Positions 44,401 to 45,044 of a DNA stretch of 64,000 bases are shown piece by piece (within the stretch, counting starts at the first letter, position 1; each line of letters begins with the position of its first letter). Made by a program: the position numbers and the translations under genes. Source of the stretch: Escherichia coli. GTDB taxonomy: Bacteria; Pseudomonadota; Gammaproteobacteria; Enterobacterales; Enterobacteriaceae. The DNA is taken from NCBI RefSeq assembly GCF_050920415.1, contig NZ_CP169309.1; one strand, written 5' to 3'. The notes beneath the pieces were generated by a model. The model was not told where the DNA came from. It saw nothing but the letters and a program-made list of their open reading frames with translations, and made no database searches.

Positions 44401-45044
44401 CATCTCCCTGACCAGTTTTTCCGCCTGCTGGCGAACCTGCGCCAGAAACGCCTCACCACATGCCTCAAGTTCATCGCGCCCGATGTAGCTGATTGCCGGT
44501 CCCTTCCAGGTCTGTCGAAAACAGCAATAGCACCAGCGAAGAAAGCGCCTGTCGGCACCTGCTTCTCATCTTTCGGGATAAACCAGGCAGGCAGTTCAAA
44601 ACCAATACGCCCGCGAATAAAAGCAATATGATCTGCATCTTCCGGCCACCACACTTCGCTGGTGGCAGCTTTGATCAGGAAAACATAGCGCCCGCCTTTA
44701 TCACGCATGGCACTGGCATGTTTCATGATGTAACGCATGCCGGTGATGTATTGCCCCTCATGCTGACTGGCGCGGCTGTATGGGGGATTACCAAAGGCAG
44801 CACCTTTAAGCTCCGCAAGACGTTCTGACCAGTCATGCGCCAGCGCGTTGTCTTCCGCCGTGTAATACGCGGTACATTTGGCGTTATCACCGTCAGTAAA
44901 CAGATCCAGGACAAACGGGCCAAACAGGGTGTTAATTCCCCAGAAAATGTTACCCGGCGTGCGCCACTGATCGCCCACTTCCTTCAGTTCATGGGCTGGT
45001 TTGTTCCGCAGTTCCACCAGCGCCCGGCAATATTTATTACTCAT
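44401..45044 (-). pseudogene. Phage Dam-like DNA N6-adenine methyltransferase with an apparent 1-nt deletion frameshift near 44501-44510
   Basis: N-terminal frame ends ...AIAVFDRPG; the downstream frame (...KGPAISYIGRDELEACGEAFLAQVRQQAEKLVREMAA*) has no start and ends in ATGA coupled to the next gene; restoring GGAAAGGG joins them. Confidence 0.55.

What the first reader, a model, noticed from the sequence alone, without database searches (positions are those of the whole stretch)
44401..45044. Dam-like methyltransferase apparently inactivated by a single-base deletion
The N-terminal reading frame (NPPY motif) reads through and out of frame across the next gene, while a start-less downstream frame ends in an ATGA junction with that gene. 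Restoring one A in GGAAGGG (44501-44510) joins them. The prophage would then rely on its second, intact orphan MTase (38583-39641), or this is a sequencing error.
Basis: seen in the sequence. Interest (0 to 1): 0.4.

Follow-up and report, generated by a model that had tools for sequence, protein, structure and literature searches.

The report
Frameshifted prophage Dam methyltransferase pseudogene
A small optional DNA-methylase gene in an E. coli prophage has really lost one base and is broken; this is an ordinary decaying prophage gene that public annotation already flags as a pseudogene.

Summary
On the minus strand, a PF05869 "phage Dam" gene starts at ATG 45044. It reads 177 native codons, including NPPY, then shifts frame. 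Its last 39 codons, in another frame, end in the ATGA junction with the next gene.

About 1,720 complete E. coli genomes carry the same gene as one 217-aa ORF.

It is not a sequencing error:
- The exact 305-aa frameshift product is on record on 11 contigs.
- All five contigs I read carry the deletion: three NCBI drafts and two assemblies of public sequencing runs.
- The nearest complete genome (MFDS1022581) also carries it, and RefSeq marks the gene there as "frameshifted".

The lost 40 residues include a conserved YIxRDxLxxxG element, a confidently modelled β-strand and the C-terminal helix. Inactivation is therefore likely but untested.

The gene is dispensable. The sampled shortest matches show PerC directly followed by the LexA-like gene, and K-12 yfdM is a remnant of the same gene. 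The second methylase (38583-39641) is intact but belongs to another family, so "reliance" on it is unsupported.

Verdict: an ordinary, already-known kind of feature, of low interest.

The parts
44392..45044 (-). Whole former coding region of the PF05869 phage Dam-family N6-adenine methyltransferase. It is 653 nt here and 654 nt in intact homologues, and is now a frameshift pseudogene.
   Evidence: Pfam PF05869 scores 155.7 bits for the repaired protein and 142.3 bits for the frameshifted one, against a cut-off of 28.1. PGAP calls the identical allele 'frameshifted' in NZ_CP169399.1.
44513..44513 (-). Site of the one-base deletion. The single A here is what remains of the AA in GAC-AAG-ACC (codon 178, Lys).
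   Evidence: Alignment of the window with L001 (same allele) and with L002 and L003, which have the A. Coordinates were checked.
44514..45044 (-). Native-frame N-terminal part, codons 1-177. It includes the N-terminal D25/W27/T29 motif, D47, and the catalytic NPPY.
   Evidence: invariant or near-invariant D25, W27, T29, D47, N86, P87, P88, Y89.
44778..44789 (-). NPPY, the motif IV catalytic tetrapeptide, residues 86-89.
   Evidence: Sequence read. Conservation in alignment A1.
44392..44511 (-). The former C-terminal 39 codons plus the stop, now in a frame with no start codon. They encode T179-A217 and end in TGA overlapping the next gene's ATG.
   Evidence: This part holds the conserved YIxRDxLxxxG element (L193 and G197 are at least 90% conserved), a predicted β-strand at 185-189 and a helix at 190-216.
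44127..44513 (-). Out-of-frame readthrough tail of 128 codons plus TGA. It crosses the start and most of the downstream LexA-like gene.
   Evidence: The tail has no Pfam match.
44069..44395 (-). Downstream gene for a 108-aa LexA DNA-binding-domain protein. Its ATG overlapped the dam stop (ATGA). A GGGAG Shine-Dalgarno sequence sits 8 nt upstream of the ATG.
   Evidence: PF01726 at 69 bits. Junction sequence.
45044..45532 (-). Upstream PerC-family (yfdN-like) gene. Its TAA stop overlaps the dam ATG (TAATG).
   Evidence: PF06069 at 32.1 bits. Junction sequence.
43677..44072 (-). RusA Holliday-junction resolvase gene. It is next in the same tightly overlapping gene chain (ATGA junction).
   Evidence: PF05866 at 56.3 bits. 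Junction sequence.
38583..39641 (-). Second methyltransferase of the prophage. It is intact, 352 aa, of the N6_N4_Mtase family with DPPY. It lies between the Q antiterminator and the tRNA/lysis genes, and no restriction gene is annotated next to it.
   Evidence: PF01555 at 150 bits. RefSeq WP_000799665.1 'DNA-methyltransferase' is intact in the near-identical record.

Best explanation
This is a real, vertically inherited one-base deletion: one A of the AA in GAC-AAG-ACC, at codon 178 of 217. The gene it breaks is an accessory phage 'Dam' N6-adenine methyltransferase (Pfam PF05869). It lies in the nin-like early-right region of a lambdoid, CPS-53-like prophage integrated next to yjjG in a rare E. 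coli lineage.

The mutant gene encodes 177 native residues, with the AdoMet-side motifs and NPPY intact. These are followed by 128 unrelated, Arg/Gly-rich residues. It has lost the family-conserved C-terminal β-strand and helix.

The most likely consequence is a misfolded, inactive enzyme, that is, a young pseudogene (inferred). A secondary effect is also likely (inferred). Ribosomes no longer stop at the ATGA junction. They run about 270 nt into the LexA-like gene in the wrong frame, so translational coupling to that gene is lost. The LexA-like gene must then rely on its own GGGAG ribosome-binding site.

The loss should be tolerated, because this methylase is an optional cassette in related prophages.
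For: Shown:

- Two frames, each 98-100% identical to one 217-aa protein, are joined by a single inserted A.
- 1,723 complete E. coli records match at least 80% of the 701-nt query. Of 1,731 records matching an 80-nt probe across the site, only one carries this allele.
- That record, MFDS1022581, is a different assembly from the window. It differs by 190 mismatches and 20 gap positions over 44 kb, and has private indels in the portal, Rz and tail-T genes. It still shares the dam deletion.
- The exact 305-aa product is deposited from E. coli M863 and 1.2741, with a third GenBank accession (EGE62037.1) that the tool did not name. It is also found in assemblies of two public sequencing runs, SRR7834586 and SRR5185396. 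All five loci I read carry GTTTTCGACAGACCTGG and differ from the window by 2 mismatches, plus one gap in L007.
- The chromosomal flank is 100% identical to MFDS1022581, while the next complete genomes are at most 98.6% identical. This fits inheritance within one host lineage.
- The repaired protein equals an intact allele seen on 34 contigs, so no further decay has occurred.

Support for loss of function:

- The Pfam match shrinks from profile positions 3-167 to 3-152 of 169.
- Homologues at 35-57% identity align out to residues 209-216.
- L193 and G197 are at least 90% conserved.
- The AlphaFold2 model (mean pLDDT 93.7) puts a strand at 185-189 and a helix at 190-216, at pLDDT 92-98, in the lost part.

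Support for dispensability:

- The sampled shortest matches show PerC directly followed by the LexA-like gene.
- K-12 yfdM is a 5' remnant of the same gene.
- STEC309 carries a different, independent frameshift.
Against: - No activity was measured. The catalytic NPPY and 82% of the protein are intact, so residual activity cannot be excluded.
- Apart from the deletion itself, the gene has no mutation relative to an intact allele. That fits a very recent event, but it would also fit continued selection on the truncated form.
- The polar effect on the LexA-like gene is pure inference.
- GATC specificity for this family rests on my memory of the HP1 phage Dam literature. It was not verified here.
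Confidence: 0.85

Rival explanations
1. The missing base is a sequencing or assembly error, and the gene is intact in the living strain.
For: - Only 1 of 1,731 matching complete E. coli records shows the allele.
- The nearest complete genome does contain indels that the window lacks, in the portal, Rz and tail-T genes, so assembly errors or private changes do occur in this prophage.
- A Dcm site (CCTGG, 44506-44510) lies 3 nt from the deletion. Dcm sites are a context I recall as prone to systematic nanopore errors.
Against: - The identical deletion is present in every assembly read: three NCBI drafts and two assemblies of public sequencing runs. These differ from the window by 2 mismatches each, so they are not copies of it.
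- The site is a dinucleotide, not a homopolymer.
- A systematic motif error would recur among the other ~1,730 complete genomes that carry the same sequence context. It does not.
Confidence: 0.02
2. The frameshifted protein, 177 native residues plus a 128-aa tail, is still an active methyltransferase. The gene is altered but not inactivated.
For: - NPPY and all invariant N-terminal and central residues are retained.
- The Pfam score stays far above threshold at 142 bits.
- The allele has persisted without further damage in strains from different collections.
Against: - The lost segment is conserved across the family down to about 35% identity.
- It is modelled with very high confidence as a strand plus a long helix.
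- It is replaced by a long low-complexity tail with no domain match.
- No homologue listed or 34 that keeps the full N-terminus ends near residue 177, except forms that look like gene fragments or frameshifts.
Confidence: 0.1
3. The split or long form is native: either a programmed frameshift, or a naturally longer protein that overlaps the next gene.
For: - A U-UUU-C stretch (GTT TTC, codons 175-176) lies 5 nt upstream of the deletion. A -1 slip of the A-site tRNA there would yield a near-native protein, with DK changed to RQ, then TWKGP... (frame 0).
- The new codon 178 is AGA, which from general knowledge is a rare, slowly decoded codon in E. coli.
Against: - Thousands of homologues are a single 217-aa ORF.
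- There is no X-XXY-YYZ heptamer and no homopolymer of 7 or more at the site.
- The allele is confined to one lineage.
- The readthrough tail has no homology.
Confidence: 0.02

Closest known systems
Intact 'phage N-6-adenine-methyltransferase' of E. coli lambdoid prophages and phages. Examples: WP_001522181.1 in strain FDAARGOS_1295; the dam genes of Shigella phage SfII and phage cdtI; Stx2a_1447.
   Same: - Same gene, at 98-99.7% DNA identity.
- Same position between the PerC (yfdN) and LexA-like genes, with the same TAATG and ATGA overlaps.
   Different: Those genes are 654 nt and 217 aa. The window lacks one A at codon 178, so it loses the last 40 residues.
The 'frameshifted' pseudogene ACE00D_RS21960 in E. 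coli MFDS1022581 (NZ_CP169399.1), and the 305-aa GenBank proteins EGB60845.1, EGE62037.1 and EIG79722.1.
   Same: Identical allele and identical surrounding prophage, and for MFDS1022581 an identical chromosomal flank.
   Different: Nothing differs at the gene itself. The older records annotate the 305-aa readthrough as a protein and omit the LexA-like gene.
yfdM of the E. coli K-12 cryptic prophage CPS-53 (KpLE1).
   Same: A decayed copy of the same gene, next to yfdN, at 96.7% identity over the first 303 nt of the query.
   Different: yfdM is truncated by a deletion that joins it to a tail-fibre-like gene. It is not a point frameshift.
Frameshifted dam in STEC309, STEC313, STEC316, STEC367 and STEC409.
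   Same: The same gene, broken in STEC309 by a one-base deletion and flagged by PGAP. The other four strains show the same 701-nt span but were not fetched.
   Different: A different, independent site: an A5-to-A4 run near the 3' end, plus a nearby G-to-A change.
The prophage MT-A70 methyltransferase M.EcoPA8orf6770P of Stx phage φPA8 (PMC10810198).
   Same: A prophage 'DNA adenine methyltransferase' whose disruption, there by IS629, changes prophage behaviour. It is a reminder that such annotations need not mean DNA methylation.
   Different: A different family (MT-A70, DPPW motif) at a different locus, and it needs a partner protein. It is not homologous in any way tested here. The window gene has NPPY and matches PF05869.

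Membership tests
Pfam PF05869 'DNA N-6-adenine-methyltransferase (Dam)' (phage Dam family) | Match to the family HMM above the gathering score | tested here: met
   155.7 bits for the repaired protein and 142.3 bits for the window product, against a cut-off of 28.1.
Pfam PF05869 'DNA N-6-adenine-methyltransferase (Dam)' (phage Dam family) | Catalytic (D/N)PP(Y/F) motif IV | tested here: met
   NPPY at residues 86-89 (44778-44789). N86, P87 and Y89 are at least 90% conserved and P88 is invariant in alignment A1.
Pfam PF05869 'DNA N-6-adenine-methyltransferase (Dam)' (phage Dam family) | Complete domain, including the conserved C-terminal element (YIxRDxLxxxG; profile positions ~152-169) | tested here: not met
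   The window product matches the profile only to position 152 of 169. The conserved L193 and G197, the strand at 185-189 and the helix at 190-216 are encoded out of frame.
Pfam PF05869 'DNA N-6-adenine-methyltransferase (Dam)' (phage Dam family) | N6-adenine methylation of DNA (GATC is reported for some members, from memory) | not testable with these tools
No close solved structure exists: the best Foldseek hits are PCIF1 and METTL4 at TM-scores up to 0.49.
Frameshift pseudogene | Close homologues encode one uninterrupted ORF, and one indel restores it | tested here: met
   The repaired protein is identical to the intact allele P0136.
Frameshift pseudogene | The lesion is real, not an assembly artefact | tested here: met
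   The same allele is in six assemblies other than the window: MFDS1022581, three NCBI drafts and two sequencing-run assemblies. These come from different projects.
Frameshift pseudogene | No recoding signal that would make the shift programmed | tested here: inconclusive
   There is no canonical slippery heptamer or long homopolymer at 44495-44525. A weak U-UUU-C site exists upstream.
Orphan (solitary) methyltransferase, for the second gene at 38583-39641 | A methyltransferase domain with no adjacent restriction endonuclease gene | tested here: met
   PF01555 at 150 bits. Its annotated neighbours are a 67-aa hypothetical protein and tRNA genes, and no restriction gene is annotated. Its specificity is unknown.

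The most novel reading that the evidence does not exclude
The frameshift allele is kept because it does something. There are three possibilities:

- It removes a costly phage methylase while uncoupling translation of the downstream LexA-like and RusA genes, which could shift the behaviour of this prophage on induction.
- Low-level -1 slippage at the U-UUU-C just upstream of the hungry AGA codon yields a trickle of near-native enzyme, with DK changed to RQ.
- The 305-aa product has gained a new role.

None of these is indicated by the data. They are only not excluded.
Probability: 0.04. Interest if true: 0.3.

Novelty: already known. Interest (0 to 1): 0.06.

Why it matters
It matters little beyond correct annotation. 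The locus should be annotated as a pseudogene plus an intact 108-aa LexA-domain gene, not as a 305-aa methyltransferase as in some older GenBank records. The allele is a handy lineage marker for a rare E. coli lineage. It also adds one more case of early decay in accessory prophage genes, here in a prophage that carries at least one other frameshift.

Tried and rejected
1. Nanopore methylation-motif error. The deletion lies 3 nt from a Dcm site (CCTGG), and the nearest complete genome has several other prophage 'frameshifts'. I rejected this. Those other indels are absent from the window, while the dam deletion recurs in older NCBI drafts and in sequencing-run assemblies. It is also absent from about 1,730 other complete genomes with the same sequence context.

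2. D31G as post-inactivation drift. Rejected. An intact allele with G31 exists on 34 contigs, and position 31 is variable in the family.

3. The published prophage 'rRNA methyltransferase' of Stx phages (PMC10810198) as the same gene. Rejected. That protein is MT-A70 with a DPPW motif, at another locus.

4. A sequence search of solved structures found nothing, and the fold search gave only weak hits to MT-A70-like and PCIF1 structures. There is therefore no structural template for the role of the C-terminus.

5. A literature search for PF05869 found no functional study in the held library. Two papers I wanted were not held: Murphy et al. 2008 (PMC2223730), on Dam and stable lysogeny of phage 933W, and PMC3837797, cited in a held review, which I recall as a review of phage orphan methyltransferases.

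6. The antisense ORFs on the + strand (44248-44631, 44493-44828, 44835-45047) have no Pfam match.

Full report
**What is in the sequence**

The feature lies on the minus strand. An ORF starts at ATG 45044; its A is shared with the TAA stop of the upstream PerC-family gene (TAATG). It encodes MSNKYCRALVELRNKPAHELKEVGDQWRTPGNIF...GNPPYSR...AFFAGAIAVFD. After residue 177 it continues as unrelated sequence (RPGRDRQSATS...) for 128 codons, to TGA 44129-44127. This tail runs across the start and most of the next gene.

A second frame with no start codon reads ...TWKGPAISYIGRDELEACGEAFLAQVRQQAEKLVREMAA*. Its TGA (44394-44392) overlaps the ATG (44395-44393) of a 108-aa LexA-DNA-binding-domain gene, forming ATGA.

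**Where the lesion is**

A megablast of the 701-nt region hit 2,639 complete E. coli records, and 1,723 of them cover at least 80% of it. Nearly all of the full-length hits listed span 702 nt against the 701-nt query.

Alignment with an intact copy (FDAARGOS_1295, 654 nt, 217 aa, WP_001522181.1) shows GTTTTCGACAAGACCTGG against the window's GTTTTCGAC-AGACCTGG. One A of codon 178 (AAG, Lys) is missing, next to window position 44513.

Inserting a base there would also rejoin the frames, but it is not what the homologues show. With the A restored at the true site, the protein is residue-for-residue identical to an intact allele recorded on 34 contigs (P0136). It differs from the FDAARGOS_1295 protein only by D31G, at a position that varies in the family.

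**Real mutation or error?**

An 80-nt probe across the site matched 1,731 complete-genome records. Only one was exact: NZ_CP169399.1, strain MFDS1022581, a food isolate from Korea. PGAP annotates the gene there as 'phage N-6-adenine-methyltransferase, frameshifted'.

The window is not that record. Over 44 kb the two differ by 190 mismatches and 20 gap positions, mostly in the tail-gene region. The record also lacks single bases that the window has in the tail-T, portal and Rz genes. That is why PGAP flags those three genes in the record, while the window's portal ORF is intact.

The exact 305-aa frameshift product is also deposited from E. coli M863 and 1.2741, with a third GenBank accession (EGE62037.1) that the tool did not name. 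It occurs on 11 contigs in all, including assemblies of sequencing runs SRR7834586 and SRR5185396. All five loci I read contain the deletion allele and none contains the intact one. Each differs from the window by 2 mismatches over 6-13 kb, plus one gap in L007.

I considered a systematic nanopore error, because a Dcm site (CCTGG) lies 3 nt away. I dropped this idea. The allele appears in older drafts and in assemblies from independent runs, and it is absent from the other ~1,730 complete genomes that share the same sequence context.

The chromosomal flank (56500-63900) is 100% identical to MFDS1022581, while the next complete genomes are at most 98.6% identical. The allele therefore marks one uncommon host lineage and is inherited vertically with the prophage.

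**What the gene is**

The repaired protein matches Pfam PF05869 (Dam, phage N6-adenine methyltransferase) over residues 18-198, which is profile positions 3-167 of 169, at 155.7 bits. The window product matches only to profile position 152.

It sits in a chain of tightly overlapping early genes on the minus strand: HTH_36, PerC, dam, LexA_DNA_bind, RusA. These are followed by KilA-N, DUF968 and the Q antiterminator. The prophage is lambdoid and CPS-53-like, with its integrase next to yjjG.

The family is widespread in phages: tblastn hit 529 phage records. In close relatives the gene is annotated 'dam', as in phages SfII and cdtI.

No close solved structure exists. The best fold matches of a confident AlphaFold2 model are weak, to the MT-A70-like and PCIF1 adenine methyltransferases at TM-scores up to 0.49.

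GATC specificity for this family is something I recall from the HP1 phage Dam literature. I could not verify it in the held papers. One held paper lists GATC-specific Dam homologues on Stx prophages (PMC6602927), but I did not establish that they are this family.

**Is it inactivated?**

This is inferred, not shown. The frameshift keeps 177 of 217 residues, including every invariant or near-invariant residue up to F176. It removes K178-A217.

- In a 27-sequence alignment reaching down to 32% identity, the lost part holds the conserved YIxRDxLxxxG element, with L193 and G197 at least 90% conserved.
- In the search of 1.8 billion representative proteins, homologues at 35-57% identity align through residues 204-216.
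- The AlphaFold2 model (mean pLDDT 93.7, pTM 0.89) places a β-strand at 185-189 and a long helix at 190-216 in the lost part, at pLDDT 92-98.
- These elements are replaced by a 128-residue Arg/Gly-rich tail with no domain match, which should prevent proper folding.

I put loss of activity at about 0.75-0.8, given that the mutation is real.

A second likely consequence is also inferred. Termination at the ATGA junction is lost, and ribosomes traverse the LexA-like gene's start out of frame. That gene would then depend on its own GGGAG site 8 nt upstream of the ATG.

**Does the prophage 'rely' on the second methylase?**

The gene at 38583-39641 is intact, has 352 aa, and belongs to PF01555 (N6_N4_Mtase, DPPY). 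It lies between Q and the tRNA/lysis genes, with no restriction gene annotated beside it. It is a different family of unknown specificity, so there is no evidence that it substitutes for Dam.

No substitution is needed in any case:

- In the spread sample of E. coli hits, every match limited to the first ~40 nt of the query shows PerC directly followed by the LexA-like gene, with no dam gene between them.
- K-12's yfdM is a 5' remnant of the same gene.
- STEC309 has an independent frameshift elsewhere in the gene. Four related STEC strains show the same shortened span, but I did not fetch them.

From general knowledge, E. coli also normally has its own chromosomal Dam.

**Alternatives**

- Sequencing error: about 0.02, for the reasons above.
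- Native long form or programmed frameshift: about 0.02. The homologues are a single 217-aa ORF, and the site has no slippery heptamer or long homopolymer. A weak U-UUU-C followed by a rare AGA codon lies just upstream, and could at most allow a small leak.
- A truncated-and-extended protein that is still active: about 0.1.

**Comparison and novelty**

The closest known thing is the same gene in intact form in hundreds of E. coli prophages, and this very allele is already flagged as a pseudogene in RefSeq.

The prophage MT-A70 'rRNA methyltransferase' of Stx phage φPA8 (PMC10810198) is a different family and locus. It is relevant only as a caution about 'DNA methylase' labels.

The finding is an ordinary, already-known kind of feature: a young frameshift pseudogene in an accessory prophage gene. 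Its practical value is annotation hygiene, since some older records call a 305-aa protein and drop the LexA-like gene, and use as a lineage marker. Interest is low (0.06).

Noticed in passing
window 36103-36743 (-), lesion at about 36646: There is a second frameshift in the same prophage, in the gene between the class II holin (36747-36962) and the lysozyme (35117-35650). It is split into two overlapping ORFs. Compared with an intact 213-aa homologue (92% identical, NZ_CM149872.1), the window lacks the C before an A7 run (GATG-AAAAAAACG against GATGCAAAAAAACG). PGAP flags the same gene as frameshifted in MFDS1022581.
   Followed up: partly
window 22277, 28973, 34519 (compared with L004 / NZ_CP169399.1): The nearest complete genome, MFDS1022581, lacks single bases that the window has in the tail-assembly-T, portal and Rz genes. 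PGAP marks those three genes 'frameshifted' there. The window's portal ORF is intact (533 aa); I did not check its tail-T and Rz ORFs separately. These differences look like private changes or assembly errors of that record. The tail-T flag may also reflect the programmed G/GT frameshift known from lambda.
   Followed up: partly
window 15000-24500: The tail-gene region (gpJ, tape measure and neighbours) differs from MFDS1022581 far more than the rest of the prophage does: about 290 of about 295 mismatches, with 140 in the single kilobase 20000-20999. The other ~39 kb has only 4 SNPs. This suggests a recombinational exchange of tail modules between otherwise near-identical prophages.
   Followed up: no
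window 52436-53577 (+): The early-left region is decayed. In the near-identical record, PGAP annotates a hypothetical gene with an internal stop (52436-52798) and two truncated fragments, one of them a DUF551 piece (52798-52923, 53338-53577). So the prophage carries several lesions besides dam.
   Followed up: no
window 38290-38542 (-): Three tRNA genes are annotated in the near-identical record (Arg, 'OTHER' and Ile). They lie just downstream of the second methyltransferase and upstream of the lysis cassette, an arrangement I recall as typical of Stx-like lambdoid prophages. No stx genes were seen in the annotation of this region.
   Followed up: no
NZ_CP169399.1 (outside the window): The nearest complete genome holds a second place matching the dam query ('places in record: 2'). 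I did not determine whether that copy is intact, or whether the window's own genome has one.
   Followed up: no
window 56500-63900: The chromosomal flank (yjjG-rimI-holD-rsmC-tRNA-Leu-fhuF-bglJ-yjjQ-yjjP) is 100% identical to MFDS1022581. The next-best of 5,426 complete E. coli genomes are at most 98.6% identical. The host therefore belongs to a lineage that is rare among complete genomes. From memory, strain M863, one of the carriers, has been placed in a cryptic Escherichia clade; I did not verify this.
   Followed up: partly
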